Sequence record: NC_015249.1
Strand: one strand, 5' to 3'
Source of the DNA: Escherichia phage 285P
DNA length: 39,270 nucleotides
Shown here one piece after another: positions 26,206 to 38,470 of this stretch. A program made the position numbers and the translations under genes. The notes beneath the pieces were generated by a model. It was given only the letters and a program-made list of their open reading frames with translations. It did no database searches and was not told where the DNA came from. Within the stretch, counting starts at the first letter, position 1; every line of letters begins with the position of its first letter.

Positions 26206-26811
26206 ATGTGCTGGATGGCTGCAATCCCTATCGCTATGCAAGGCGCTTCCATGATTATGGGAGGTATGCAGGGTGAACAGGCAAAGGCCGCACAGATTGA
26301 CCAAGGTCGTCGTCAAAGTATGCAGATGCTGAAGGAGATGAACTACAACGAAGCTAACCTTAAGTTAGAATCTCGTGACCTCATTGACTCCACCGTGCAA
26401 GAGATGACCCAATCGAATATGAACCGTGTGAGAAACATGGGGACTATCCGCGCGGCAATCGGTGAAGGGATGCTTGAAGGTAACTCTATGGAACGTGTAA
26501 CCCGCGTTACCGAGGGTGACTTCCTTCGAGAGTCTCAAGGTCTCACTGAGAACTACCAACGTGACTATAGTGTCATCTTAGGGAAGCGTTTAGCTAACCA
26601 CGAGAACACAGTGAGTCAGATTAAAGAAATCAACAACTCTGAGCCACGGCTTAAAGGCAAGCTGGAACAAATTATCGACCCATTAGGCTTAGGCTTAACG
26701 AAGCTGGTTGATGTTGCAACTGCTGGTAGTCCTCTAACCAATAAGTTAGGTAAGAAGGCTGCTGCTAAGGTCAAGGCTTCAGATGCCAAGTCAACAGGCC
26801 AAGGTAAATAA
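26206..26811 (+). CDS. 14: internal virion (ejection) protein B
   Basis: 201 aa; N-terminus MCWMAAIPIA and R.AIGE.MLEG.SM.R..RVTEG match T7 gp14. Confidence 0.9.
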   Translation: MCWMAAIPIAMQGASMIMGGMQGEQAKAAQIDQGRRQSMQMLKEMNYNEANLKLESRDLIDSTVQEMTQSNMNRVRNMGTIRAAIGEGMLEGNSMERVTRVTEGDFLRESQGLTENYQRDYSVILGKRLANHENTVSQIKEINNSEPRLKGKLEQIIDPLGLGLTKLVDVATAGSPLTNKLGKKAAAKVKASDAKSTGQGK

Positions 26812-26825
26812 AGGAGGTACAGTTT

Positions 26826-29105
26826 ATGAGTAAGTTAGCTCAAGCATTGGGTAGCATGAACGCTCCGACTACCAGTCGTCTGCGTGGCACTGGTCGTATG
26901 GAAGTTAAGGCCGCAACAGTATATGAAGACCCTAAGTATGCCGAGAAGTCAAAGCTGATTGGCACTGTGGGTAAACTTGCTGAGATGGGCGCAGATGCTT
27001 ACATGAAGTATGACCAGTATCAGAAGGATAAAGCAGACGAACGCTCAAACGAGATTATTCGTAAGCTGACTCCTGAACAACGCCGAGAGGCCATTAAGAA
27101 TGGAACCCTGTTATATCAGGACGACCCATACGCAATGGAAGCACTTAAGGTGAAGACTGGTCGTAACGCCGCGTATCTCGTTGATGACGAGGTGGCGCAG
27201 AAGGTCAAGAACGGTGAGTTCCGTACTCGTCAAGAGATGGAAGAGTTTCGTCATAGCCGACTACAGGAAGCCGCTAAGAACTATGCGGAACAGTTTGGTA
27301 TCGACGAGACCGATGAGCATTACCAGAAGGGATTCAACTCTGACATCACCGAGCGTAACATTGCTCTCTATGGTGCTCATGATAACTTCCTGAGTGACCA
27401 AGCTAAGAAGGGTGCTGTCATCAACAGCCGCGTAGAGTTGAACTCTGTGTTGAACGACCCGGACACTCTGCGTTCTCCTTATGCTGGTGAGTTCTTTGAG
27501 AACTACTTCAGTGCCGGATTGACTACAGGAAGTATCCCTAGTGATGACCAAGCGTTCACCATGATTAGCCAAGGTCTCTCTGACGTGGTTAACCGTGAGG
27601 GCGGTGGTCAGTTCCTGCAACAGATTGAGAACCGAAAGGTAAAACTGCATGGCAAGGAGACTACCTTCAAGGAACTGATGGGTGCCGAACAGTGGAATAA
27701 CTTGATGGTCAAGGCTCAACACAATGAGTTCCAGTTGAATGCCAAGAAGACCGAGGCATTCCAACTCAATGTGAACTCTGCGTTGAACCAAGAGAACGTG
27801 AACACTGGATGGGAACAGCTACAATCCATCAAGGCAGAACTGGATACACTGCAACCGGGCGAAGAGATGACACCTGAACGTCAGGCTCTAATCAACGCAC
27901 AGACGCAGATGCAGGACCGCATGAAGCGAGAGACTGCCGAGTTAGCCAAGCAGATGGATAAGCAACAGAAGTCAATGAACAAGATGAACGTCATTGATGC
28001 ACAGTTCCAGAAGCGACTCAACGGTGAATATGTGTCTACTGCGTATGGCGATATGCCAACCAATGAGAACACTGGCGAGTTCACCCATAGTGACATGGTT
28101 AACTATGCGAACAAGAAGTTAGCCGACATTGACGCTATGGACATCCCTGCTGAACAGAAGGACCGAATGAAGCTGGACTACCTCAAGGCTGACTCTGAGA
28201 AGGGTGCTTTCCGTACTGCGGTTGGTGAACTTATTGGGGACGCTGAGAAGGAGTGGACGTCCGCTGTGATTAACGGGAAGATGCCAGAAGATGGTGGAGT
28301 GGCACTTAATGCTCTTCGTCGTGTTCGTAATGCTGACCCTGAGTTATTCGCTGCACTCTATCCTGATAAAGCCGAGATGTTCCTCACGATGGACATGATG
28401 GACAACCAAGGGATTGACCCACAAATCCTGCTGGATGCAGATAAGGCTCGACAGTCTCTTACCAAAGAGATGCAGTACGAGGATGACAAGGCTTGGGCTT
28501 CGCTGAAGAACAACTCCGAGTCTCCCGAACTGTCCCGTATGCCAGCCACCTTGGACGCTGGTGCTCGTAAGATTTATGACTCTGTGAAGTACCGTACTGG
28601 CAATGCTGATATGGCAATGCAACAGGTCGATAAGTATCTCAAAGAGAACACAACGACTCTCACTGGTGATGGTGTTGATGGTGATACCATCGGTGTCTTA
28701 ACGAGAAACTCCCTGCGTGTGACCGATGACCCGAACTCTTGGAAACAAGGTAAGGACATCATCGACCAAGCCGCTAAGAAACTCGCTGAGACGAACCCTT
28801 GGGTTACTAACAAGCAACTCACTGTGTTCGAGCGTGGTGACTCTATCTACCTGATGGACACTACCGGACAGGTTAACGTAAGGTACGACAAGCAGTTGCT
28901 CTCTAAGATGTACCAAGAGAATCAGGCCAAGTTGGATGCGGAAGCACGAGACAAGGCACTCAAAGATGCCAACAAGCGAACCCTGCATACACGAGCTATG
29001 AACCGTAAGCGCGAACGTGAAGCCAAGAAACCTAAGCGTTCTGGTAGCATGTACGACTCGGTGAGTGGTAAAGGTATTCTGGACACGCTGACTGGTAAAG
29101 ACTAA
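26826..29105 (+). CDS. 15: internal virion (ejection/core) protein C
   Basis: 759 aa (T7 gp15 is 747); position. Confidence 0.9.
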   Translation: MSKLAQALGSMNAPTTSRLRGTGRMEVKAATVYEDPKYAEKSKLIGTVGKLAEMGADAYMKYDQYQKDKADERSNEIIRKLTPEQRREAIKNGTLLYQDDPYAMEALKVKTGRNAAYLVDDEVAQKVKNGEFRTRQEMEEFRHSRLQEAAKNYAEQFGIDETDEHYQKGFNSDITERNIALYGAHDNFLSDQAKKGAVINSRVELNSVLNDPDTLRSPYAGEFFENYFSAGLTTGSIPSDDQAFTMISQGLSDVVNREGGGQFLQQIENRKVKLHGKETTFKELMGAEQWNNLMVKAQHNEFQLNAKKTEAFQLNVNSALNQENVNTGWEQLQSIKAELDTLQPGEEMTPERQALINAQTQMQDRMKRETAELAKQMDKQQKSMNKMNVIDAQFQKRLNGEYVSTAYGDMPTNENTGEFTHSDMVNYANKKLADIDAMDIPAEQKDRMKLDYLKADSEKGAFRTAVGELIGDAEKEWTSAVINGKMPEDGGVALNALRRVRNADPELFAALYPDKAEMFLTMDMMDNQGIDPQILLDADKARQSLTKEMQYEDDKAWASLKNNSESPELSRMPATLDAGARKIYDSVKYRTGNADMAMQQVDKYLKENTTTLTGDGVDGDTIGVLTRNSLRVTDDPNSWKQGKDIIDQAAKKLAETNPWVTNKQLTVFERGDSIYLMDTTGQVNVRYDKQLLSKMYQENQAKLDAEARDKALKDANKRTLHTRAMNRKREREAKKPKRSGSMYDSVSGKGILDTLTGKD

Positions 29106-29128
29106 CAGACCACGATAGGAGGTTTCAA

Positions 29129-32100
29129 GTGGATAAGTATAACCCGAACGAACCGCATGAATATGATGCGTTATTTCAACAAGCCGCTGACACACATGGA
29201 GTCTCCTATGGCCTTCTTCGGAAGGTCGGTTGGGTAGAGTCCCGCTTTAAACCTACGGCTCAATCACCAACAGGGCCGAGAGGTGTCATGCAGTTCACTA
29301 AGGCAACTGGTCAGGCTTATGGTCTCCAGAACGATGAGGACTTCACTGACCCGGCTAAGTCCATTGATGCAGGTGCTCGTTACCTTGCAGACCTCGTTAA
29401 GAAGTACAATGGTGACGAACTGAAAGCTGCCCTAGCGTACAACCAAGGTGAAGGCCGTAATGGTAAGCCTCAACTGGAAGCCTACGATTCTGGTAACTTT
29501 GCCAGCATTGGGGATGAAGGCCGTAACTATCTGCGTTCACTTCTGGATGTCGCTAAGTCACCTAAGAGTGGGGACATCGAGTCATTCGGTGGTATCACCC
29601 CAAAGGGTAAAGGGATTCCGTTTGATGCTGCGATGAGTGGTATCGGGAAGAAAGGAAAGGTAACAACTGAACTCCCTGAGTCTCACTCAATGTCCTTTCA
29701 AGGTAAAGAACAGGCCACTCCCAATCAGCCGTTCGGTAAAGACTATTGGGAAGCCAAAGGAACTACACTCGACGAAGCTAATGAGCGTTCAACCTTCTTC
29801 GGATTTGGAAATGCTGCTGAAGCAGAACTCTCCAACTCAACATTGGGTGTGGCCTTCCGTGCTGGTAAGCGTGATAATGGTTTCGATGTTGTTACTGACG
29901 TATTACAACCGACACGGTTCAACAGCCACATTTGGTCGCCTGAAGAACTCGAAAGGATTCGCAACGAAGTGAAGAACCCTGCGTATATGAACGTAGTGCT
30001 TGGAGGTTCCTCTGAGAATCTGGATGAACTCATCAAGTTAGCCAATGAGAACTTCGAGTTGGACTCTAAGGCTGCTGATGCTGGTCTTGGTGCCAAACTG
30101 TCTGCTGGCCTTATTGGTGCTGGTGTGGACCCTCTGACCTACGTTCCAATCGCTGGGACTGCGGCTAAGGGATTCAAACTGGTAAACAAGGCGCTGATTG
30201 TAGGTGCACAGGCAGGTGCTCTCAACGTTGCCTCTGAAGGTCTGCGTACATCGGTTGCTGGTGGTGATGCTCACTATGCCGAAGCTGCCCTTGCTGGTAT
30301 GCTGTTCGCAGGTGGACTGACTGCTATTGCTGACGGTGTTGCCGCAGGTCTCCGTAAGTCCGGTGCTGAACAGATTGAGAACCCATTCGCTGCTGCACAG
30401 ATGCGCTTTGAGGCTCGTGAGACTGCACGTAACACTGGCGGTTATGACGCAAGCCGTATGCCTCCAAGTGAAGACCGAGTGTTCTCACAGCACAATGGCG
30501 TTGAGTATGCACCTCTTGAAACTGAACCGGGTGCTGTAGTGTTGCGTGATGGTTCCATTATCAGTGACACAAACTTGGCTAACCCGATGACAGCCAAAGA
30601 GTTCGCAGAAGTAGACCCTGAACGTGCTGCGTGGGGCTTGCCTATGCGTGGATTGAGTGAAATCGGCTTGAGGACTTTACGTTCTGAACATGCTGAAATC
30701 CGTGGTCTCGCTAAGGACTTAGTGCGTTCACCTACAGGGATGGAGTCTGGCTCACATGGTAAGTTCGGTGCTACCGCATCTGACATCAAAGAGCGACTGC
30801 ACAGTACCAACCAGCGAACCTACAATGACCTCTACGCTGCAATGAAGAAAGCAATGGCTGACCCTGAGTGGTCCGTGGGTATGTTCAAGCGTGGTGCTCA
30901 AGGTGCCCGTCAGGAAATCTATCGTCGTGCTGCTATCGCTATTGAGCGTCCAGAACTTCAAGCCAACTTAACGAAGGCTGAGCGTAAGGTGATGGACATC
31001 ATGAAGGAACACTTCGACCTCAAGCGTGAGATGATGGAGAACCCTGCGATGTTTGGTAACAAGGCAACTTCAATCTTCCCTAACAGTCGTCACAAGGGTA
31101 CTTACGTTCCTCATGTGTACTCACGGGAAGCCAAGCAGTTGTACTCACAGGCTCTTGGTGGCTCTGACGGTTTACAGGAAGCTATCGCTGCAAGCTGGAT
31201 GACATCTTATCGTGCACGTACAGAAGTTAAGGCTCGTGTTGATGAGCACTTAGCGGAGACCTTGGGTATCGACCCTAAAGCTGTTACCGAAGAGATGGTG
31301 ATGAAACATGCCAGCGACAAGGCCTATGGTATTGCGAAGACTGATGAGTTCAACTCTTCAAGTGTCATTGACGACAACATTGAGGGTCTCGTAGGGATTG
31401 AGAACAACTCGTTCCTTGAAGCCCGTAACCTGTTCGACTCTGACATGCCAGTCACTTTACCGAATGGACAACAGTTCTCCGTGAATGACCTCCGAGACTT
31501 CGATATGAAGCATGTGATGCCAGCATATGACCGCCGTGTTGATGGTGATATTGCTATCATGGGTGGTACAGGAAAGACGACTGCTGAACTCAAGGATTCC
31601 ATTATGGCTCTCGATAAGAAGTCTGAAGGTAAAGGCACAATGAAAGGTGAAGTGGAAGCACTCAAGGATACCGTTAAGATTCTCACAGGCCGTGCTCGAC
31701 GCAATCAGGATACTATGGGTGACACTATGGTCCGCGCTATGTCCGATATGTCCTTCTTTACGAAGAACGCATATATGGGCTTGCAGAACCTAACTGAAAT
31801 CTCTGGTCTCTTGGCGAAAGGTAACACCCGTGCGATGCTTCATGGCATTCCAGCTCTGCGTGACCTAGCATTCAGCAACAAGCCAGTGTCCGGTAAGGAA
31901 CTTAAGGAACTACACTCTATGGTGTTCGGTAAAGAGTTTGATGACTTAATCAGACCGACACGTCAGGACATCATTCAGCGACTCCGTGAATCTACGGATA
32001 CACCTGATGTTGCCGCTAAGGTTGTTGGTACGGTTAAGCACACCACTCAAGAGTTGGCTGCTCGCTCTCCGTTCACTAAGTTCCTCAATGGTACTTCCAA

Positions 32101-33076
32101 CTACATTCTGGACATGGCCCGTCAAGGTGTCATGGGGGATGTGGTAACTCACGCCATTACTGGTAAGGGTGCCAACAAGTGGATTAAAGGTGACATGCTG
32201 AAATCTGCGAGTATCTCTAAGGAACAATGGGAAGGCATTCAGAACCTCATCCGCGAGAACGTCACTCAAGGCGCTGACGGCAAGTACACCTTCAAGGACA
32301 AGCGCAAGCTGGCTAATGACCCACGAGCTATGGACCTGTGGCGACTGGCTGATAAGGTAGCTGATGAAACCATGCTGAGACCACACAAGGTGTCCTTACA
32401 GGATTCCCATGCGTTCGGGGCAACCGCTAAGTTGGTCCTTCAGTTTAAGTCATTCGTAATCAAGTCGATGAACTCTAAGTTTATCAGAAGTAGACACGAG
32501 ATGGCACACAACCACCGCGCTATGGACATGGCACTAACCTATGCTATCTCTGGTGGTATCGCTGGCTCCTACTATGTGGCACAGGCCCACTTGAAGGCCG
32601 CTGGTCTTCCTAAAGAGCAACAGAAGGATTACCTGAAGAAAGCTCTTGACCCTAAGATGATTGCCTACGCTGCTGCGTCCCGAAGTTCACACCTTGGGTC
32701 GCCTCTGAGTATCGCAAACTTCGCTATGGGTGCTGCTGGTTATGACCAAGGTCTCATGGTCCGCTCTACGATTCTCCCGAAAGGTGAGGACAAGCGGGAA
32801 CGGAACAAGGCGGTAACTTCTCGTGACATGAGTGACTCCATTATGGGTGCATTGGGTGAACAGATTCCTGCTCTTGGGTTAGCTGGGGCAACCTTTGCTG
32901 CTGGTCGAAATGCTTATGGTGTCCTTACGGCTCCTAATAAAGTGACCGAGCGTGAGATGATGACTGGCCTAATGAATGCTCATCGTGAGATGGTTCCGAA
33001 TGACCCTATCACTCAACAGATGCTCATTAAGTTCTATGAGGCCAACGGTGTTCACCTGAAGTCCGACAAGAAGTAA
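29129..33076 (+). CDS. 16: internal virion protein D with N-terminal lytic transglycosylase domain
   Basis: 1315 aa (T7 gp16 is 1318); N-terminus MDKYNPNEP...GVSYGLLRKVGWVESRF.PTA.S.TGP.G.MQFTKAT matches T7 gp16; GTG start 6 nt after AGGAGG. Confidence 0.95.
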   Translation: MDKYNPNEPHEYDALFQQAADTHGVSYGLLRKVGWVESRFKPTAQSPTGPRGVMQFTKATGQAYGLQNDEDFTDPAKSIDAGARYLADLVKKYNGDELKAALAYNQGEGRNGKPQLEAYDSGNFASIGDEGRNYLRSLLDVAKSPKSGDIESFGGITPKGKGIPFDAAMSGIGKKGKVTTELPESHSMSFQGKEQATPNQPFGKDYWEAKGTTLDEANERSTFFGFGNAAEAELSNSTLGVAFRAGKRDNGFDVVTDVLQPTRFNSHIWSPEELERIRNEVKNPAYMNVVLGGSSENLDELIKLANENFELDSKAADAGLGAKLSAGLIGAGVDPLTYVPIAGTAAKGFKLVNKALIVGAQAGALNVASEGLRTSVAGGDAHYAEAALAGMLFAGGLTAIADGVAAGLRKSGAEQIENPFAAAQMRFEARETARNTGGYDASRMPPSEDRVFSQHNGVEYAPLETEPGAVVLRDGSIISDTNLANPMTAKEFAEVDPERAAWGLPMRGLSEIGLRTLRSEHAEIRGLAKDLVRSPTGMESGSHGKFGATASDIKERLHSTNQRTYNDLYAAMKKAMADPEWSVGMFKRGAQGARQEIYRRAAIAIERPELQANLTKAERKVMDIMKEHFDLKREMMENPAMFGNKATSIFPNSRHKGTYVPHVYSREAKQLYSQALGGSDGLQEAIAASWMTSYRARTEVKARVDEHLAETLGIDPKAVTEEMVMKHASDKAYGIAKTDEFNSSSVIDDNIEGLVGIENNSFLEARNLFDSDMPVTLPNGQQFSVNDLRDFDMKHVMPAYDRRVDGDIAIMGGTGKTTAELKDSIMALDKKSEGKGTMKGEVEALKDTVKILTGRARRNQDTMGDTMVRAMSDMSFFTKNAYMGLQNLTEISGLLAKGNTRAMLHGIPALRDLAFSNKPVSGKELKELHSMVFGKEFDDLIRPTRQDIIQRLRESTDTPDVAAKVVGTVKHTTQELAARSPFTKFLNGTSNYILDMARQGVMGDVVTHAITGKGANKWIKGDMLKSASISKEQWEGIQNLIRENVTQGADGKYTFKDKRKLANDPRAMDLWRLADKVADETMLRPHKVSLQDSHAFGATAKLVLQFKSFVIKSMNSKFIRSRHEMAHNHRAMDMALTYAISGGIAGSYYVAQAHLKAAGLPKEQQKDYLKKALDPKMIAYAAASRSSHLGSPLSIANFAMGAAGYDQGLMVRSTILPKGEDKRERNKAVTSRDMSDSIMGALGEQIPALGLAGATFAAGRNAYGVLTAPNKVTEREMMTGLMNAHREMVPNDPITQQMLIKFYEANGVHLKSDKK

Positions 33077-33077
33077 T

Positions 33078-33100
33078 CAATACGACTCACTATTGGGAAG
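33078..33100 (+). promoter_or_regulatory. T7-type promoter (phi17-like) CAATACGACTCACTATTGGGAAG
   Basis: Seen: overlaps the gene 16 stop; 5' hairpin GGGAAGG..CTTCCC follows. Confidence 0.8.
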
Positions 33101-33147
33101 GCTAACACAGCTTCCCTTTATTATACCTAACCGAAAGGAGGCTACAG

Positions 33148-35079
33148 ATGGCTAACAAAATTTCCACTGTGCGTACTTACCCACTTAATGGTGCCGTGAA
33201 CTTTACAATCACCTTTGAGTATCTGGCCCGTAAGTTCGTGCAAGTAACCCTAATTGGTAAAGACCGTAAGGAACTGGTTCTCAATCAGGACTACCGATTT
33301 ACCTCTAAGACGCAAATCACAACCTCTCGTACTTGGACTGCCGCAGATGGCTACCAGATGATTGAGATTCGTCGATTCACTTCAGCTACTGACCGTCTGG
33401 TTGACTTTGCTGATGGCTCTATCCTTCGTGCATATGACCTGAACATCTCACAGATTCAGACTCTGCACGTTGCTGAGGAAGCACGAGACCTCACTGCTGA
33501 TACTATTGGTGTCAACAACGATGGTCACTTAGATGCCCGTGGTCGTAAGATTGTGAACCTTGCGTTCGCTACCAATGACTATGATGCTGTTCCTCTGAAG
33601 CAGGTTAAGGAGCGTGAGTCCTCCGCGTGGAATGCTGTTACTAAGGCAAACGAACACGCCGACCGTTCTAATCGAGAGGCTAATCGTTCTCGTGATGAGG
33701 CTAACCGTGCTCAACGTGAAGCTGACCGTGCAACTCAACAAGCAGGTATCTCTACGGCACAAGCGGTTGAGTCCAAGAAGCAAGCTGACCGTTCCAACTC
33801 TGAGGCCAACCGTGCTAAAGGATATGCTGATAGTATGACCGCAAGTGTCGCTGAGGCCAAGAAGCAAGCTGACCGTTCTAACTCTGAGGCCAATCGTGCT
33901 CGTGATGAGGCCAATCGTGCTGCCGGAGAAGTGACTAAAGCTGCTGCTGAGGTTGCCAAGGCTGCTGCACATGTTGAGACCGCTAAGGGACATGCTGACC
34001 GAGCCAACACTGAGGCAAACCGCTCTAAGAGTGAGGCTGACCGTGCTAAGTCTGAGGCCGACAAGTTGGGTAATATGAATGACCTAGCGGGAACCATTGA
34101 GAGCATTGGGAGTAACGGCAAGGATATTAACTTCAAGGGTGGCGTGAATGGGAATACAATGCTTGCTAAGGATTCTATCCATGCTGGGGTACAACCAAAC
34201 ACAGCGTTCCTAAATGATAACACGCTACGCCTTCGCAACAGAGACCACAAAGAGCGCGCTTGGGACATCTTTGTTTGGGGCAACAATACAGGACGTGGGA
34301 ATGTGTTGGAGTTTGGGTCTAATTATGGTAAAGGGTATGGGATGTACTTGCAGTTTGGTGGGGCTGATTCTCAAGACGCACACCTGCAAATTAATGGCTC
34401 GCTTACCACGAAGACTAACTTTAATGCAGACGGTTCAATCGACGCAAGGGGTGTTTTACAGACTCGCTCACAGAACCTGCTGATGATTAACTCTGCTCGT
34501 CGGCATATTCAAATGAAAACAAGCGATTCCTACACTGACGGTTATCTCTACAAAGACCCCGGTGCTGGGGCTTGGCGATTCAACTTTGGTCAGGCAGCTA
34601 ACAGGGAATATTCTTTTGACTCGAATGGTACTCTATCATCTAGCTCCGGGTGGAACATCCCGCCAGATGGGAACCTGTACATCAAAAAGTACAACCTGTA
34701 TATTGATGCGTGGGTGAACAAACGACTAGTGGAACATGCCTACAATAAGACTGAGACTAACAACCTAGTCAATGGACGATTAACTCAAGCGCAAGCTGAC
34801 GGTCGATACATTCGTAAGAATGCTGGCTGGGCTGAGGTGTGGAAAGGTTCCGCTGGTGGTGGGGTATCCGTAGGTCTCTCTCAAGATGTCCGCTGGAGAA
34901 CCATCTGGATTCAAACACGAGGTCGTTGGAACCCGGTTGAGATTGGGGACAACGGGGCTTACTACATCTCATCACATGGTGGGTGGTTGACCTTCACAAT
35001 CTCCAACAATGGGCGTACATTCCGTAACGATGGAGACAGGGCTTCTGTTCCTACTCGTATCCTTGTACGTAACGACTAA
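33148..35079 (+). CDS. 17: tail fiber protein
   Basis: 643 aa; N-terminal ~150 aa and C-terminal ~80 aa match T7 gp17 (553 aa) as recalled; central region expanded with AxRSNxEANRA-type repeats. Confidence 0.95.
   Translation: MANKISTVRTYPLNGAVNFTITFEYLARKFVQVTLIGKDRKELVLNQDYRFTSKTQITTSRTWTAADGYQMIEIRRFTSATDRLVDFADGSILRAYDLNISQIQTLHVAEEARDLTADTIGVNNDGHLDARGRKIVNLAFATNDYDAVPLKQVKERESSAWNAVTKANEHADRSNREANRSRDEANRAQREADRATQQAGISTAQAVESKKQADRSNSEANRAKGYADSMTASVAEAKKQADRSNSEANRARDEANRAAGEVTKAAAEVAKAAAHVETAKGHADRANTEANRSKSEADRAKSEADKLGNMNDLAGTIESIGSNGKDINFKGGVNGNTMLAKDSIHAGVQPNTAFLNDNTLRLRNRDHKERAWDIFVWGNNTGRGNVLEFGSNYGKGYGMYLQFGGADSQDAHLQINGSLTTKTNFNADGSIDARGVLQTRSQNLLMINSARRHIQMKTSDSYTDGYLYKDPGAGAWRFNFGQAANREYSFDSNGTLSSSSGWNIPPDGNLYIKKYNLYIDAWVNKRLVEHAYNKTETNNLVNGRLTQAQADGRYIRKNAGWAEVWKGSAGGGVSVGLSQDVRWRTIWIQTRGRWNPVEIGDNGAYYISSHGGWLTFTISNNGRTFRNDGDRASVPTRILVRND
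33650..34070 (+). repeat. imperfect tandem repeats inside the tail-fiber shaft (84-nt period; 42-bp near-identical units at 33775-33816 and 33859-33900)
   Basis: Seen: AAGAAGCAAGCTGACCGTTC(C/T)AACTCTGAGGCCAA(C/T)CGTGCT twice plus degenerate copies; encodes (KKQ)ADRSNSEANRA repeats. Confidence 0.75.
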
Positions 35080-35126
35080 TGGACAACATATAGACCACGG
35101 ATGGTCTCAACAATAAGGAGGACACA

Positions 35127-35333
35127 ATGTTGTCTTTAGATTTTAACAACGAGGTAGTGAAGGCTGCTCCGATTGTAGGGACAGGTGTAGCCGATGGCGC
35201 TGCCCGTCTGTTCTTCGGACTGTCCCTTAACGAGTGGTTCTATGTAGCCGCAATTGCCTACACAGTGGCTCAAATTGGTGCCAAGGTAGTCGATGTGATT
35301 ATCAAATGGAAGAAGGAGGGCAAAGATGTCTAA
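35127..35333 (+). CDS. 17.5: holin (class II)
   Basis: 68 aa; near-identical to T7 gp17.5 as recalled (MLSLDFNNE..KAAPIVGTGVAD..ARLFFGLSLNEWFYVAAIAYTV.QIGAKVVD). Confidence 0.9.
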   Translation: MLSLDFNNEVVKAAPIVGTGVADGAARLFFGLSLNEWFYVAAIAYTVAQIGAKVVDVIIKWKKEGKDV

Positions 35334-35595
35334 CGATAAATCATTAATCCAATTCCTTGAGATGCTGGATACTGAGATGGCTCAACGTATGCTGAAAGAC
35401 CTTCAGGATGACGAGAAGCGCACACCTCAACTTTATAACGCTATCGGGAAACTGCTTGAACGCCATAAGTTCCAAGTCTCCAAGTTACAGCCAGACCGTA
35501 ACATCCTTGGTGGACTGGCAGATGGACTCGAAGAGTACCAGAACATGGTAGGTGCCGATGGTCTCACTGAGGATGAGAAGTACACGCTTAACTGA
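35326..35595 (+). CDS. 18: terminase small subunit
   Basis: 89 aa; KSLI.FLEMLDT.MAQRML.DL.D.E.R.PQLYNAI.KLLERHKFQ match T7 gp18. Confidence 0.9.
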   Translation: MSNDKSLIQFLEMLDTEMAQRMLKDLQDDEKRTPQLYNAIGKLLERHKFQVSKLQPDRNILGGLADGLEEYQNMVGADGLTEDEKYTLN

Positions 35596-35606
35596 TGGTA
35601 ATACTC

Positions 35607-35633
35607 AAGGCCCACTACATCTAGTGGTCTTTA
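35607..35633 (+). promoter_or_regulatory. hairpin AAGGCCCACTA-CATC-TAGTGGTCTTT (possible RNase III/processing site, R18.5 position)
   Basis: Seen: 6-bp perfect stem with AAGG...CTTT flanks reminiscent of the conserved element. Confidence 0.3.
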
Positions 35634-35694
35634 TGAATTATCAACACAACTCACGGTGACGCTACGTGAAATCTGAAAATACAGGAGGGTAGTT

Positions 35695-36138
35695 ATGCTC
35701 AAGAATTTAAAGAGCTACGCCATCGCTGCGGCTTTTGTCTTGGGGATGACCCTTGCGTACAACCACGGCTATGACAAGGCTAACACTAAATGGGAACAGG
35801 AGGTGCACAATGAGTACGTCAAGCAAACTGAGGCGACTGCGAATAAACAGGCTGCTATCAACGAAATCTCACGACAATACCAAGAAGACCTTGCGGCGCT
35901 GGAAGGCAGCACTGATAGGGTCATTAATGATTTGCGTAACGATGGTAAGCGCTTGCGCGTCAAACTATCAGCCACCTCACGAGAACTCCAAGCTAACGGT
36001 GGATGCCTCGCTGATGGTCGAGCCGAACTTGACGAAGAGTTTAGTAAGCGTCTTATCGGAGTAACTCAAAGAGGGGATGCGTGGATTAAGGCGCTCCAAA
36101 ATACAATAACTGAAATGCAATCTAAGAAGGAGAAATAA
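35695..36138 (+). CDS. 18.5: Rz-like i-spanin
   Basis: 147 aa; N-terminal TM then coiled-coil; contains embedded +1 lipoprotein ORF. Confidence 0.9.
   Translation: MLKNLKSYAIAAAFVLGMTLAYNHGYDKANTKWEQEVHNEYVKQTEATANKQAAINEISRQYQEDLAALEGSTDRVINDLRNDGKRLRVKLSATSRELQANGGCLADGRAELDEEFSKRLIGVTQRGDAWIKALQNTITEMQSKKEK
35810..36064 (+). CDS. 18.7: Rz1-like o-spanin (lipoprotein), embedded in Rz in +1 frame
   Basis: 84 aa from Met preceded by GGAGG; lipobox-like MVSAC; C-terminal SLMVEPNLT matches T7 gp18.7. Confidence 0.8.
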   Translation: MSTSSKLRRLRINRLLSTKSHDNTKKTLRRWKAALIGSLMICVTMVSACASNYQPPHENSKLTVDASLMVEPNLTKSLVSVLSE

Positions 36139-36139
36139 T

Positions 36140-36697
36140 ATGGCTACTACAAACTCAAGAACCCGCACACTCTGGACCATCAATGGTCGCTCGCCAGACA
36201 GTCGTGATGTGTATGACCTAAACAATATTGGTATTCGTGTTGGGCGTATCGACATCCCAGCTTCGGAGATGGTTAAGGTTGAGGGCTACTCTAAGGTTGA
36301 ATACGTTATCCAACTGAGTGATGGCACCACTGAGCAACATGCTACGTTCGAGACCCTTATGTCCACTTGGGGTGGCTCCGTCGAGTCTAAACCGGGTAGC
36401 GGGTTCATGACGGTGTTCCTGAATGAGCAAAGCACTGAGCGACTCGGTATGGTTCGAATCGACGTATACAAAGAGTGGACTGGTGCTGACCCTGAACCTG
36501 AAGGTGGTATGGCTTCCTTAGTTAGTGCAACGCTTTCTGCGTCTGATAGTGAATTTGGCACACAGTTCGTGGATAGCGAAGGGAAGAGCGCTTCCGTTAT
36601 GTTCCAACCTAGTAACATCGACGGGGCTGTATCCAAGACCGACACTATCAAGGCTCTTGAGAAGCGCATCGCTGCCTTAGAGAAACCTGCCGAGTAA
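36140..36697 (+). CDS. hypothetical protein inserted between Rz/Rz1 and large terminase
   Basis: 185-aa ORF with AAGGAG RBS 9 nt upstream; no TM; C-terminal amphipathic helix (TIKALEKRIAALEKPAE). T7 has gene 19 directly after 18.5. Confidence 0.6.
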   Translation: MATTNSRTRTLWTINGRSPDSRDVYDLNNIGIRVGRIDIPASEMVKVEGYSKVEYVIQLSDGTTEQHATFETLMSTWGGSVESKPGSGFMTVFLNEQSTERLGMVRIDVYKEWTGADPEPEGGMASLVSATLSASDSEFGTQFVDSEGKSASVMFQPSNIDGAVSKTDTIKALEKRIAALEKPAE

Positions 36698-36712
36698 CAA
36701 TAGGAGGCCACA

Positions 36713-38470
36713 ATGTCTACTCAAGCAAACAAGAATGCGCTCATCGTGGCGCAACTTAAGGGTGACTTCGTGGCCTTCCTGTTCGTCTTATGGAAGGCTC
36801 TGAACTTACCTAAACCAACCAAGTGTCAGATTGATATGGCACGTACACTCGCTAATGGCGACCACAAGAAGTTTATCCTTCAGGCGTTCCGTGGTATCGG
36901 CAAGTCCTTTATCACCTGTGCGTTCGTCGTGTGGGTCTTATGGCGTGACCCTCAACTCAAGGTGCTCATCGTGTCTGCCTCTAAGGAACGTGCTGATGCT
37001 AACTCCATCTTCATCAAGAACATCATCGACCTGCTGCCATTCCTCTCTGAGTTGAAACCTCGACCGGGACAGCGTGACTCTGTGATTAGCTTCGACGTTG
37101 GCTTGGCGAAACCCGACCACTCACCTTCTGTGAAGTCTGTGGGTATCACTGGTCAGTTGACTGGTAGTCGTGCTGACATCATTATCGCAGATGACGTTGA
37201 GGTTCCCGGCAACAGTTCTACAAGCTCTGCTCGTGAGAAGCTCTGGACGTTGGTAACTGAGTTCGCTGCATTACTTAAGCCGCTGCCTACCTCTCGTGTT
37301 ATCTACCTTGGCACACCTCAAACTGAGATGACGCTCTACAAGGAACTTGAGGATAACAAAGGGTACAGCACAGTAATCTGGCCAGCACAGTATCCTCGCA
37401 ATGATGCTGAGGCTCTCTACTATGGGGACCGCTTGGCTCCGATGCTTAAGACTGAATACGATGAAGGCTTCGAGTTACTTCGTGGTCAACCTACTGACCC
37501 TGTTCGATTCGACATGGATGACCTCCGTGAACGTGAACTCGAATATGGTAAAGCTGGCTACACTCTTCAGTTCATGCTCAACCCGAACCTTAGTGATGCC
37601 GAGAAGTACCCGCTACGACTCCGTGACGCTATCGTGTGCGCTGTGGACCCTGAACGTGCCCCATTGTCTTACCAGTGGTTGCCGAACCGTCAGAACCGCA
37701 ATGAGGAACTCCCTAACGTTGGTCTGAAGGGTGATGACATCCATGCGTTCCATACGTGCTCTTCTCGTACCGCTGAGTATCAGTCTAAGATTCTGGTCAT
37801 TGACCCAAGTGGTCGCGGTAAGGATGAGACCGGGTATGCAGTCCTCTACTCACTGAACGGTTACATCTACCTGATGGAAGTCGGAGGGTTCCGTGGTGGC
37901 TACGATGATGCTACCTTAGAGAAGCTCGCTAAGAAGGCCAAGCAGTGGAAGGTACAGACAGTCGTCCATGAGTCCAACTTCGGTGACGGTATGTTCGGTA
38001 AGATTTTCTCTCCGATTCTCCTGAAGCACCATAAGTGTGCCTTAGAGGAAATCCGTGCTAAGGGCATGAAGGAGATGAGAATCTGCGATACTATCGAACC
38101 GTTGATGGGTGCGCACAAGCTGGTCATTCGTGATGAGGTTATCCGTGAGGACTACCAGACTGCTCGTGACCTTGATGGGAAACATGATGTTCGATATAGT
38201 GCGTTCTATCAGATGACCCGTATGACTCGTGAGCGCGGCGCTGTGGCACATGATGACCGCATTGATGCTATCGCATTGGGTATCGAGTTCCTTCGTGAAG
38301 GGATGCTTGTGGACAGCCGTGTAGGTGAAGAAGAGATGACTCTTGAGTTCCTTGAACACCACATGGAGAAACAGACCATTGGTGGTGATGCTATCCATAG
38401 CTACGATGTTGGTGGCGTGGACATCTACTATGAGGACGATGGAGACTCTAGCTGCTTCATTGAGTGGTAA
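36713..38470 (+). CDS. 19: terminase large subunit (DNA maturase B)
   Basis: 585 aa (T7 gp19 is 586); near-identity over long stretches as recalled ([56 protein letters not shown]). Confidence 0.97.

What the first reader, a model, noticed from the sequence alone, without database searches (positions are those of the whole stretch)
33600..34100. Tail fiber with expanded repetitive coiled-coil shaft between conserved tail-attachment and receptor-binding ends
The gp17 homolog is 643 aa, against 553 aa for T7 as I recall. Its N-terminal ~150 aa and C-terminal ~80 aa align with T7, while the centre carries imperfect 28-aa (84-nt) repeats of the type KKQADRSNSEANRA(R/K)..., including two 42-bp near-identical DNA units. 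Repeat expansion could lengthen the fiber shaft, and the repeats are a likely site of recombination or slippage. The T7-like C-terminal tip suggests a rough-LPS type receptor, though the host cannot be determined from this.
Basis: partly seen in the sequence, partly recalled or inferred. Interest (0 to 1): 0.45.

Follow-up and report, generated by a model that had tools for sequence, protein, structure and literature searches.

The report
Known T7-like phage tail fibre gene
This is the already deposited and experimentally used tail-fibre gene (gp17) of coliphage 285P, an ordinary Berlinvirus-type fibre whose helical shaft is six heptads longer than T7's and whose conserved shaft DNA has served as a crossover point for swapping the outer half of the fibre.

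Summary
The ORF 33148..35079 (+) encodes 643 aa, identical to gp17 of Escherichia phage 285P. The contig on record is 39,270 bp, the same length as the window.

Three points need correction:
- **Repeat period.** It is 7 aa (24 unbroken heptads, aa 150-317), not 28 aa.
- **Extra length.** Only 42 of the 90 extra residues lie in the shaft. Another 22 lie in the middle beta region and 27 in the linker before the tip.
- **Copy number.** It does not vary: all 27 homologue clusters and 12 phage genes with this shaft type have the same shaft length. The B/C duplication is old and orthologous across phages.

Recombination is real but homologous, not slippage. The gene is a three-part mosaic, with one crossover inside the shaft at 33972-33975. 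The linker and tip (34663-35079) are at most 83.5% identical in DNA to any record in the phage collection.

Published work on close relatives already describes the longer fibre, the coiled coil, the repeats near the break and dependence on LPS core. This is ordinary and already known.

The parts
33078..33100 (+). Phage RNA-polymerase promoter-like site (phi17) just after the gene 16 stop codon
   Evidence: The sequence CAATACGACTCACTATTGGGAAG matches 19 of 23 bases of the T7 promoter consensus, which I quote from memory. Promoters are annotated at the same offset, 2 nt after the gene 16 stop, in ETEP21B, BA14, FE44 and Yepe2.
33135..33141 (+). Ribosome-binding site AAGGAGG, 6 nt upstream of the ATG
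   Evidence: Read directly from the sequence.
33148..35079 (+). Gene 17, tail fibre protein, 643 aa, identical to gp17 of Escherichia phage 285P
   Evidence: ORF. Exact match to YP_004300576.1. PHROG 4242 tail fibre, full-length match, E 3.4e-237.
33148..33594 (+). N-terminal tail-attachment domain, aa 1-149
   Evidence: Pfam PF03906, E 9.1e-49. 70% identical to T7. Foldseek matches the T7 proximal half-fibre structures 8DSP and 7EY9.
33595..34095 (+). Alpha-helical coiled-coil shaft, aa 150-316: 24 unbroken heptads with an Ala/Val ('a') and Ala/Ser ('d') core
   Evidence: Heptad layout. AlphaFold2 predicts a single helix over aa 151-316. The shaft is 42 aa longer than T7's between shared anchors.
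33775..33816 (+). 42-bp unit B, encoding KKQADRSNSEANRA (aa 210-223)
   Evidence: 40/42 identical to unit C. It is the least diverse stretch of the shaft among 13 phages.
33859..33900 (+). 42-bp unit C, encoding KKQADRSNSEANRA (aa 238-251)
   Evidence: This unit is diverged (25-32/42 against unit B) in PYps50T, Yepe2 and Sekstaphage-1.
33972..33975 (+). Inferred homologous-recombination junction inside the shaft, at aa 275/276, the border of blocks C and D
   Evidence: Informative sites switch from nasanit-like (gene nt 24-825) to PZJ0206-like (gene nt 828-1515). Sliding-window identities agree.
34054..34080 (+). Conserved end-of-shaft motif EADKLGNMN, aa 303-311; the probable hinge and the usual module boundary
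   Evidence: A300, E303, K306, L307 and N311 are invariant in 48 aligned fibres. The motif is present in 103 of 120 homologues. Megablast similarity to the BA14-type genes ends at gene nt ~935. T7's hinge maps between residues 250 and 280 (bioRxiv 10.1101/2025.10.22.683886).
34096..34662 (+). Variable beta-rich middle module, aa 317-505, corresponding to the T7 distal shaft and pyramid region
   Evidence: AlphaFold2 predicts beta strands. 98% identical to PZJ0206 but 10-32% to BA14, ETEP21B, CarlSpitteler, Yepe2 and Sekstaphage-1, and 16% to T7. BLASTP against T7 is not significant.
34663..34824 (+). Linker, aa 506-559, 27 residues longer than in T7
   Evidence: Anchor motifs. Two short helices predicted at aa 519-530 and 534-538, at low confidence. 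A 27-aa insertion in the helical linker is reported for the Sxt1 fibre (PMC11680406).
34825..35076 (+). Tip domain, aa 560-643, a beta sandwich: the predicted receptor-binding tip
   Evidence: pLDDT above 90. phmmer match to T7 structure 4A0T, E 2.3e-23. Foldseek match to 4A0T, E 1.9e-12. 51% identical to the T7 tip, 94% to PYps50T's. DNA of linker plus tip is at most 83.5% identical to any record in the phage collection.

Best explanation
The region encodes the proximal shaft of the lateral tail fibre gp17 of a Berlinvirus-genus, T7-like coliphage. The protein is identical to gp17 of phage 285P.

**How it works.**
- aa 1-149 dock the fibre on the tail.
- aa 150-316 of each chain form one long helix with an unbroken 7-residue repeat and a small-residue (Ala/Ser/Val) core. 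By analogy with T7, three such helices form a parallel trimeric coiled-coil rod of about 24-25 nm, roughly 6 nm (six heptads) longer than T7's.
- The invariant EADKLGNMN motif ends the rod at the hinge.
- A variable beta-rich module, a lengthened linker and a T7-like tip follow. The tip binds sugars of the LPS core of E. coli.

**Where the DNA repeats come from.** They are the nucleotide footprint of the heptad pattern plus old internal duplications of multi-heptad blocks. Their copy number is fixed.

**What the repeats do in evolution.** The conserved rod DNA gives co-infecting relatives a stretch of homology for crossing over, so the distal half of the fibre can be exchanged as a cassette. 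This gene itself is a three-part mosaic, with one crossover inside the rod.

**Shown:** homology, heptad pattern, predicted helix, length partition, constant length among relatives, mosaic break-points.
**Inferred:** trimer, physical length, hinge, receptor.
For: - **Identity.** Exact match to 285P gp17.
- **Family.** PF03906, T7 gp17 matches at both ends, PHROG 4242 over the full length, Foldseek hits to T7 fibre structures.
- **Shaft.** 24 heptads with Ala, Val or Leu at 22 of 24 'a' positions and small residues at 'd'; spectral power 5.18 against a shuffle maximum of 1.71. AlphaFold2 predicts a helix over aa 151-316.
- **Length.** +42 aa in the rod against T7, out of +90 in total.
- **Family-wide rod lengths.** The anchor-to-anchor distance falls into classes of 130 (T7 and T3, n=31), 137, 156 and 172 (this one, n=27), among others. 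68 of 103 homologues differ from T7 by a multiple of 7.
- **Stability.** No length variation within the 172 class.
- **Mosaic.** Gene nt 1-825 is 97-98% identical to nasanit and ETEP21B; nt 828-1515 is mostly 97-100% identical to PZJ0206 (about 90% around gene nt 1080-1210); the rest is at most 83.5% identical to anything in the phage collection.
- **Literature.** The T7 proximal region is a dynamic triple-helical coiled coil with a hinge (bioRxiv 10.1101/2025.10.22.683886). ETEP21B's fibre has a four-domain AlphaFold2-multimer model and depends on waaC (PMC11267873). The Berlinvirus-type fibre of Sxt1 is described as extended (PMC11680406). Recombinant 285P Gp17 binds E. coli (PMC9202026).
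Against: - The trimeric state and the rod length are not measured for this protein, and the model is a monomer with mean pLDDT 66 and pTM 0.25.
- An Ala/Ser core is unusually small for a stable coiled coil.
- The direction of change (growth here or loss in T7) cannot be decided without a rooted tree. Rod identity to T7 is only 22%, so where the 42 residues sit inside the rod is uncertain.
- The 'parents' of the mosaic are only the nearest available relatives, not the true donors.
- Pfam's pyramid and tip models, which hit T7, do not hit this protein.
- 35 of 103 homologues differ from T7's rod length by something other than a multiple of 7.
Confidence: 0.85

Rival explanations
1. The repeats form an actively unstable tract. 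Slippage or unequal crossing-over between the near-identical 42-bp units adds or removes 28-aa blocks, which tunes fibre length within populations in the manner of a contingency locus.
For: Two units 84 nt apart are 40/42 identical. Rod length differs between classes across the wider family. Phage contingency loci have been reported for T2 and T4 (bioRxiv 10.1101/2025.10.21.683753, seen in the list but not read).
Against: - Rod length is identical in all 27 clusters and 12 phage genes of this class, although the sequences have diverged to 63-96% identity.
- All full-length members of the protein's own cluster are 643 aa, and one of these sequences was seen on 36 contigs.
- The B and C copies carry copy-specific synonymous differences shared across phages, so they are old orthologous copies.
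- There are only two near-identical copies and they are not adjacent. Tandem Repeats Finder finds no 84-nt array.
Confidence: 0.05
2. The length difference from T7 reflects deletions in the T7/T3 lineage rather than expansion here. The long rod would be ancestral, and the internal similarity of the blocks would come only from convergent heptad constraints.
For: T7's class is the shortest of all 16 rod-length classes. The heptad-permutation test gives only weak support for block structure above the heptad (p about 0.05-0.06). T7's rod is also heptad-periodic, with a different motif.
Against: Blocks A-D share 10-17 of 24 residues and up to 56 of 72 nucleotides, including the 40/42 unit. That is hard to obtain without duplication or gene conversion at some stage. 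Polarity remains undetermined.
Confidence: 0.25
3. The apparent mosaic comes from uneven selective constraint along the gene, not from recombination.
For: Conservation does vary along the rod.
Against: - Informative sites switch sharply. Nearly all are nasanit-like up to gene nt 825. From nt 828 to nt 1515 there are about 130 PZJ0206-like sites with only four exceptions.
- The nearest relative changes with the segment: nasanit and ETEP21B, then PZJ0206, then none.
- The flanking genes are patchworks of the same kind.
Confidence: 0.03
4. The long antisense and alternative-frame ORFs over the repeat block (33529..33993 -, 33735..34286 -, 33614..33838 +) are real overlapping genes.
For: ORFs of 154, 183 and 74 aa are listed. 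Stop-free antisense stretches occur over the rod in all relatives.
Against: - Their boundaries and lengths (80-203 codons) are not conserved among relatives, as expected from a codon-composition effect of the repeated GCN-GAC-CGT-type codons.
- Established knowledge of T7-like phages is that all genes are transcribed from one strand; the gene 17 neighbours read here are on the + strand.
- The + frame has homologues over its full length.
Confidence: 0.01

Closest known systems
Bacteriophage T7 gp17 tail fibre (PDB 4A0T/4A0U for the C-terminal part; 7BOZ, 7EY9 and 8DSP for the N-terminal part)
   Same: Same gene position (between gene 16 and the gene 17.5 holin). Same N-terminal PF03906 domain (70% identity). 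Heptad-repeat proximal rod ending in the EADKL motif. Beta-rich distal shaft and a homologous tip (51% identity; phmmer E 1e-21; Foldseek E 1.9e-12).
   Different: - 90 aa longer: +42 in the rod, +22 in the middle region, +27 in the linker.
- Rod sequence only 22% identical, with an A-[DN]-R-[SA]-x-x-E motif instead of T7's F-R-N-E-A-E-x type.
- The middle region has no significant sequence similarity to T7.
- Pfam PF20744 and PF12604 hit T7 but not this protein.
Berlinvirus-type gp17 fibres already described: ETEP21B-TF (PMC11267873), the Sxt1 lateral tail fibre (PMC11680406), PYps50T and BSP161 (PMC8762354), JeanTinguely/Bas64 and CarlSpitteler/Bas68 (PMC8594841)
   Same: The rod has identical length and 88-97% identity. 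The end-of-rod motif and the linker insertion are the same, and the tip is 81-94% identical. The literature already reports the four-domain architecture, the 'extended' fibre, the repeats close to the break at about aa 320, and dependence on LPS core.
   Different: The combination of segments differs: a nasanit/ETEP21B-like 5' part, a PZJ0206-like middle module, and a linker-plus-tip allele at most 83.5% identical in DNA to any phage in the collection.
Gp17 of Escherichia phage 285P (YP_004300576.1; Xu et al. 2014, Virus Genes 48:528, cited in PMC8762354 and PMC9202026)
   Same: Identical sequence over all 643 residues. The contig on record is 39,270 bp, the length of the window. The recombinant protein binds E. 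coli (PMC9202026).
   Different: None found.
Modular exchange at conserved segments of phage tail-fibre genes (a general principle known for T-even and lambdoid fibres; from my own knowledge)
   Same: A conserved proximal segment supplies the homology for swapping the distal receptor-binding parts.
   Different: Here the conserved segment is a heptad-repeat coiled coil, and the most variable module is the middle region rather than the extreme tip.

Membership tests
T7-type lateral tail fibre gp17 (Studiervirinae) | N-terminal Phage_T7_tail domain (PF03906) that attaches the fibre to the tail | tested here: met
   E 9.1e-49 over aa 1-154, above the curated cut-off. 70% identity to T7.
T7-type lateral tail fibre gp17 (Studiervirinae) | Gene lies between gene 16 (internal virion protein with transglycosylase) and gene 17.5 (holin), behind a phage promoter | tested here: met
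   The neighbouring ORFs have the same order as the annotated loci of PZJ0206, BA14 and ETEP21B. A promoter-like site lies at 33078-33100.
T7-type lateral tail fibre gp17 (Studiervirinae) | Proximal alpha-helical coiled-coil rod ending at a hinge | tested here: met
   24 unbroken heptads. Predicted helix over aa 151-316. Conserved EADKL motif. Oligomeric state not tested.
T7-type lateral tail fibre gp17 (Studiervirinae) | C-terminal tip domain homologous to T7 gp17 residues 465-553 | tested here: met
   phmmer E 1.2e-21 for aa 543-643 against T7 452-553. Foldseek match to 4A0T, E 1.9e-12. pLDDT above 90.
T7-type lateral tail fibre gp17 (Studiervirinae) | Pfam pyramid (PF20744, gp37_trimer) and tip (PF12604, gp37_C) models | tested here: not met
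   T7 gp17 hits both models (E 2.5e-40 and 1.2e-13). The C-terminal 327 aa of this protein gives no Pfam hit at E up to 10. The Pfam models are narrower than the homology seen in pairwise and fold comparisons.
T7-type lateral tail fibre gp17 (Studiervirinae) | Homotrimer, six fibres per virion | not testable with these tools
   Only monomer prediction is available here. An AlphaFold2-multimer trimer model is published for ETEP21B, whose rod is 96% identical (PMC11267873).
T7-type lateral tail fibre gp17 (Studiervirinae) | Binds LPS core of the host | not testable with these tools
   From the literature only. 285P Gp17 binds about 60% of E. coli strains tested (PMC9202026). ETEP21B and the BASEL relatives depend on waaC or waaG (PMC11267873, PMC8594841).
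Berlinvirus-type long gp17 (PHROG 4242) | Full-length collinear match, including the 172-residue anchor-to-anchor rod | tested here: met
   PHROG 4242: aa 1-642 against profile positions 1-627 of 628, E 3.4e-237. Rod class 172 is shared with 27 clusters.
Hypervariable or contingency-type tandem repeat tract | Adjacent near-perfect repeat units whose number varies among close relatives | tested here: not met
   No 84-nt tandem array. Only two near-identical units, and they are not adjacent. No length variation in 27 clusters, 12 phage genes or the cluster's own members.
YadA-like coiled stalk of trimeric autotransporter adhesins (PF05662) | Match to the PF05662 stalk motif | tested here: not met
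   No hit for this protein at E up to 0.1. T7 gp17 gives only a sub-threshold hit (21.6 bits against a cut-off of 28.4). Some homologues carry the domain.

The most novel reading that the evidence does not exclude
The rod may act as a calibrated spacer. Across Studiervirinae the distance between two invariant anchors falls into discrete classes (130, 137, 144, 165 and 172 residues all differ by whole heptads). That could match fibre reach to the thickness of the host's surface layer or to the docking of the fibre on the capsid. The conserved rod DNA, with an unusual trough of synonymous diversity at 33769-33810, could be a preferred landing site for recombination that swaps distal fibre halves. 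Neither idea has been tested, and both are partly anticipated in the literature (PMC11680406, PMC8762354).
Probability: 0.25. Interest if true: 0.35.

Novelty: already known. Interest (0 to 1): 0.12.

Why it matters
The practical value is small. The analysis corrects the picture of where the extra length of Berlinvirus-type fibres sits: 47% in the rod, the rest in the middle module and the linker. It shows that the repeats are a stable heptad scaffold rather than an unstable tract. It also maps a concrete crossover inside the rod. For fibre engineering, two junctions look natural for grafting distal modules: the rod (aa 150-316), in particular the EADKLGNMN motif, and the PPDGNLYIKKY stretch. 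For host prediction, the middle module and the tip assort independently, so neither alone identifies the host.

Tried and rejected
- **Tandem Repeats Finder** found only a 21-nt, 2.9-copy array at 33998-34058 and no 84-nt array.
- **Heptad-permutation test** for block structure above the heptad was marginal (51-59 of 1000 permutations reached the observed value). The 42/28/42 block description is therefore descriptive, not strongly proven.
- **Placing the 42 extra rod residues against T7** was abandoned. Rod identity is 22% and MAFFT's gaps are not trustworthy, so only the anchor-to-anchor total is reported.
- **Pfam on the C-terminal half** gave nothing. BLASTP of the middle region against T7 was not significant (E 0.14).
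- **Rfam on the whole window** gave no family at gathering threshold.
- **Antisense and alternative-frame ORFs over the rod** were rejected because their boundaries are not conserved.
- **The 625-aa PYPS50 protein** looked like a length variant. It differs from PYps50T only after residue 545, which looks like a C-terminal frameshift and leaves the rod unchanged.
- **The AlphaFold2 monomer** has low overall confidence (pLDDT 66, pTM 0.25). Only the secondary structure and the tip were used.
- **Not run:** the metagenome and genome-contig scans and the representative-protein search, because the identity of the protein was settled.
Full report
**What is there.** The finding lies inside one ORF, 33148..35079 on the + strand, 643 aa. 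It follows the 1315-aa gene 16 homologue and precedes a 68-aa holin-like ORF. A T7-type promoter-like site (33078-33100) and an AAGGAGG ribosome-binding site lie upstream. The whole window is a Berlinvirus-genus (Studiervirinae) genome. Its nearest record in the phage collection is Enterobacter phage PZJ0206, at 94-96.5% nucleotide identity. An exact look-up shows that the protein is identical to gp17 of Escherichia phage 285P (YP_004300576.1). The contig on record is 39,270 bp, the length of the window.

**Check of the observation.**
- T7 gp17 is 553 aa.
- Pfam finds the T7 tail-fibre N-terminal domain in aa 1-154, E 9e-49.
- phmmer against solved structures aligns T7 gp17 with aa 1-187, weakly with aa 217-339, and with aa 543-643 (T7 452-553, E 1.2e-21).
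- The two 42-bp units lie at 33775-33816 and 33859-33900 and are 40/42 identical.

These facts are right. The period is not 28 aa. Written in sevens, the sequence from aa 150 to aa 317 is 24 unbroken heptads. Position 'a' holds Ala, Val or Leu in 22 of 24 heptads, and position 'd' holds Ala, Ser, Val, Met or Leu throughout. Arg is common at 'c' and Glu at 'g'. The 3.5-residue spectral power is 5.18, against a maximum of 1.71 in 2000 shuffles. Self-identity is 0.21-0.54 at every multiple of 7 aa and 0.08 elsewhere, and the 28-aa offset is unremarkable. Four related blocks begin at aa 164, 206, 234 and 276, a spacing of 42/28/42. Support for this higher-order structure beyond the heptad is marginal.

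**Structure.** An AlphaFold2 monomer built from a 48-sequence alignment has mean pLDDT 66. It gives:
- one continuous helix over aa 151-316;
- beta strands over aa 317 to about 500;
- two short low-confidence helices at aa 519-538;
- a beta sandwich over aa 560-642 with pLDDT above 90.

Foldseek's best hits are the T7 gp17 C-terminal crystal structure (4A0T, E 1.9e-12, 215 aligned columns) and the T7 N-terminal cryo-EM structures. In T7 the proximal region has been imaged as a dynamic triple-helical coiled coil that ends at a hinge between residues 250 and 280 (bioRxiv 10.1101/2025.10.22.683886). That hinge position corresponds to the EADKL motif.

**Where the extra 90 residues are.** I used motifs shared with T7 as anchors.

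| Segment | Difference from T7 (aa) |
|---|---|
| N-terminal domain | -1 |
| Rod, RGRxIVN to EADKL | +42 (exactly six heptads) |
| Just after the rod | +2 |
| Middle beta region | +22 |
| Middle region to linker helix | -1 |
| Linker before the tip | +27 |
| Tip | -1 |

So 47% of the extra length is in the repeat block. At 0.148 nm per residue (the textbook rise of a coiled coil), 42 residues add about 6 nm to a rod of about 24-25 nm. This length is inferred, not measured. The 27-aa linker insertion and the 'extended' fibre are already reported for the Berlinvirus-type fibre of phage Sxt1 (PMC11680406).

**Is the repeat number variable?** No.
- In an alignment of 15 phage gp17 proteins, the rod has no indel among the 13 carrying this rod type, including JeanTinguely (Teseptimavirus) and Sekstaphage-1 (Teetrevirus). 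Total lengths of 569-674 aa differ only distal to the rod.
- Among 120 homologue clusters, the anchor-to-anchor distance falls into classes: 130 (T7 and T3, n=31), 137 (8), 149 (6), 156 (15), 172 (this class, n=27), 201 (2) and rarer values. All 27 members of the 172 class share that length although their rod identity to the window ranges from 63% to 96%.
- All full-length members of the protein's own 90% cluster are 643 aa, and one of these sequences was seen on 36 contigs.
- The B/C near-identity (37-40 of 42) is present in 10 of 13 phages, with copy-specific synonymous differences shared between phages. In PYps50T, Yepe2 and Sekstaphage-1, unit C is diverged (25-32 of 42). The duplication is therefore old and its copies are orthologous.

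Across the family, 68 of 103 rods differ from T7's by whole heptads. Rod length has thus changed over long time scales, mostly in heptad steps.

**Recombination.** The gene is a mosaic.
- Gene nt 1-825 is 97-98% identical to phages nasanit and ETEP21B but about 89% to PZJ0206.
- Gene nt 828-1515 is mostly 97-100% identical to PZJ0206, dipping to about 90% around gene nt 1080-1210. Its identity to nasanit falls from about 90% to 57% along this stretch.
- The last 417 nt (linker plus tip, 34663-35079) are at most 83.5% identical to any of 50,697 phage records. The flanks downstream are again 92-99% PZJ0206-like.

Sites that distinguish nasanit from PZJ0206 switch between gene nt 825 and 828, which is window 33972-33975 and aa 275/276. 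This is inside the rod, at the border of blocks C and D. A second junction lies near 34662-34675, at the conserved PPDGNLYIKKY stretch.

Protein identities by segment show independent assortment.

| Segment | Nearest relatives | T7 |
|---|---|---|
| N-terminal domain, aa 1-149 | nasanit, ETEP21B 100% | 70% |
| Rod, aa 150-316 | nasanit 97% | 22% |
| Middle module, aa 317-505 | PZJ0206 98%; 10-32% to BA14, ETEP21B, CarlSpitteler, Yepe2, Sekstaphage-1 | 16% |
| Tip, aa 560-643 | PYps50T 94% | 51% |

Most relatives lose similarity at gene nt ~935, about aa 312, at the EADKLGNMN motif. Hammerl et al. already noted repeats close to this transition in PYps50T against Yep-phi and suggested that they caused the break (PMC8762354).

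**Receptor and host.**
[quoted passage not shown] The homology percentages quoted in that paper match mine (PMC9202026).
- ETEP21B (tip 88% identical) plates 3 logs lower on a waaC mutant, yet infects many strains that carry O-antigen (PMC11267873).

An LPS-core receptor is thus well supported by homology. Restriction to rough strains is not supported.

**Other strands and frames.** Long antisense ORFs overlap the rod. Their boundaries vary from 80 to 203 codons among relatives, and T7-like phages are known to transcribe one strand only. They are a codon-composition effect. Rfam finds nothing in the window.

**Verdict.** This is a correctly spotted but ordinary feature: the coiled-coil shaft of a known, deposited and experimentally used tail-fibre protein. 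The longer fibre, the coiled coil, the repeats near the module break and the LPS-core dependence are all in the literature for close relatives. What this analysis adds is modest. It gives the exact partition of the extra length, shows that the repeat number is fixed, describes the heptad-stepped rod-length classes across the family, and maps a crossover inside the rod.

Noticed in passing
window 33769-33810 (unit B of the rod, aa 208-221): Among 13 phage gene 17 sequences this 42-nt stretch is the least diverse part of the rod. Nucleotide diversity is 0.034 against 0.129 overall, and at third codon positions 0.071 against 0.28. It stays at 40/42 or better even in Yepe2, whose rod is only 79% identical. 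No explanation was tested; selection on the nucleic acid, gene conversion with unit C and a recombination hot spot are all possible.
   Followed up: partly
window 26500-37000: The whole late region is a patchwork. The nearest relative alternates among nasanit, PZJ0206 and ETEP21B every 0.5-2 kb. For example, 31000-31450 in gene 16 is 70-75% identical to PZJ0206 but 93-94% to the other two.
   Followed up: partly
window 34663-35079: The linker and tip of gene 17 are at most 83.5% identical in DNA to any record in the phage collection, although the DNA on either side is 92-100% PZJ0206-like. This is a replaced tip patch whose donor is not in the collection. At protein level the tip is 94% identical to PYps50T's.
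   Followed up: partly
L005 (Escherichia phage JeanTinguely, Teseptimavirus), gene 17: Its N-terminal domain is T7-like (74% identical to the window), but its rod is Berlinvirus-type (92%) and has the same length. This implies another exchange junction at the border between the N-terminal domain and the rod, about aa 130-150.
   Followed up: no
protein cluster of the window's gp17: The 90%-identity cluster also holds five JGI/IMG fragments of 41-56 aa. Three are named 'mannose/fructose-specific PTS component IIA' and two 'hypothetical protein'. They are probably short Ala-rich fragments that were mis-named or mis-clustered. They are not evidence about function.
   Followed up: no
homologues P0037, P0059, P0096 (Kvp1-type) and P0043, P0044: Some family members interrupt the heptad rod with a non-helical-looking insert containing the motif (D/G)GEYSAKH(W/Y). 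This may account for rod-length classes that are not multiples of seven.
   Followed up: no
window 33078-33100: A promoter-like site, CAATACGACTCACTATTGGGAAG, begins 2 nt after the gene 16 stop codon. This is the position where phi17 promoters are annotated in ETEP21B, BA14, FE44 and Yepe2.
   Followed up: partly
homologue P0129 (Yersinia phage PYPS50 gp17, 625 aa): It is identical to PYps50T's protein up to residue 545 and unrelated after that, which looks like a C-terminal frameshift in that record. It is not a rod-length variant.
   Followed up: yes
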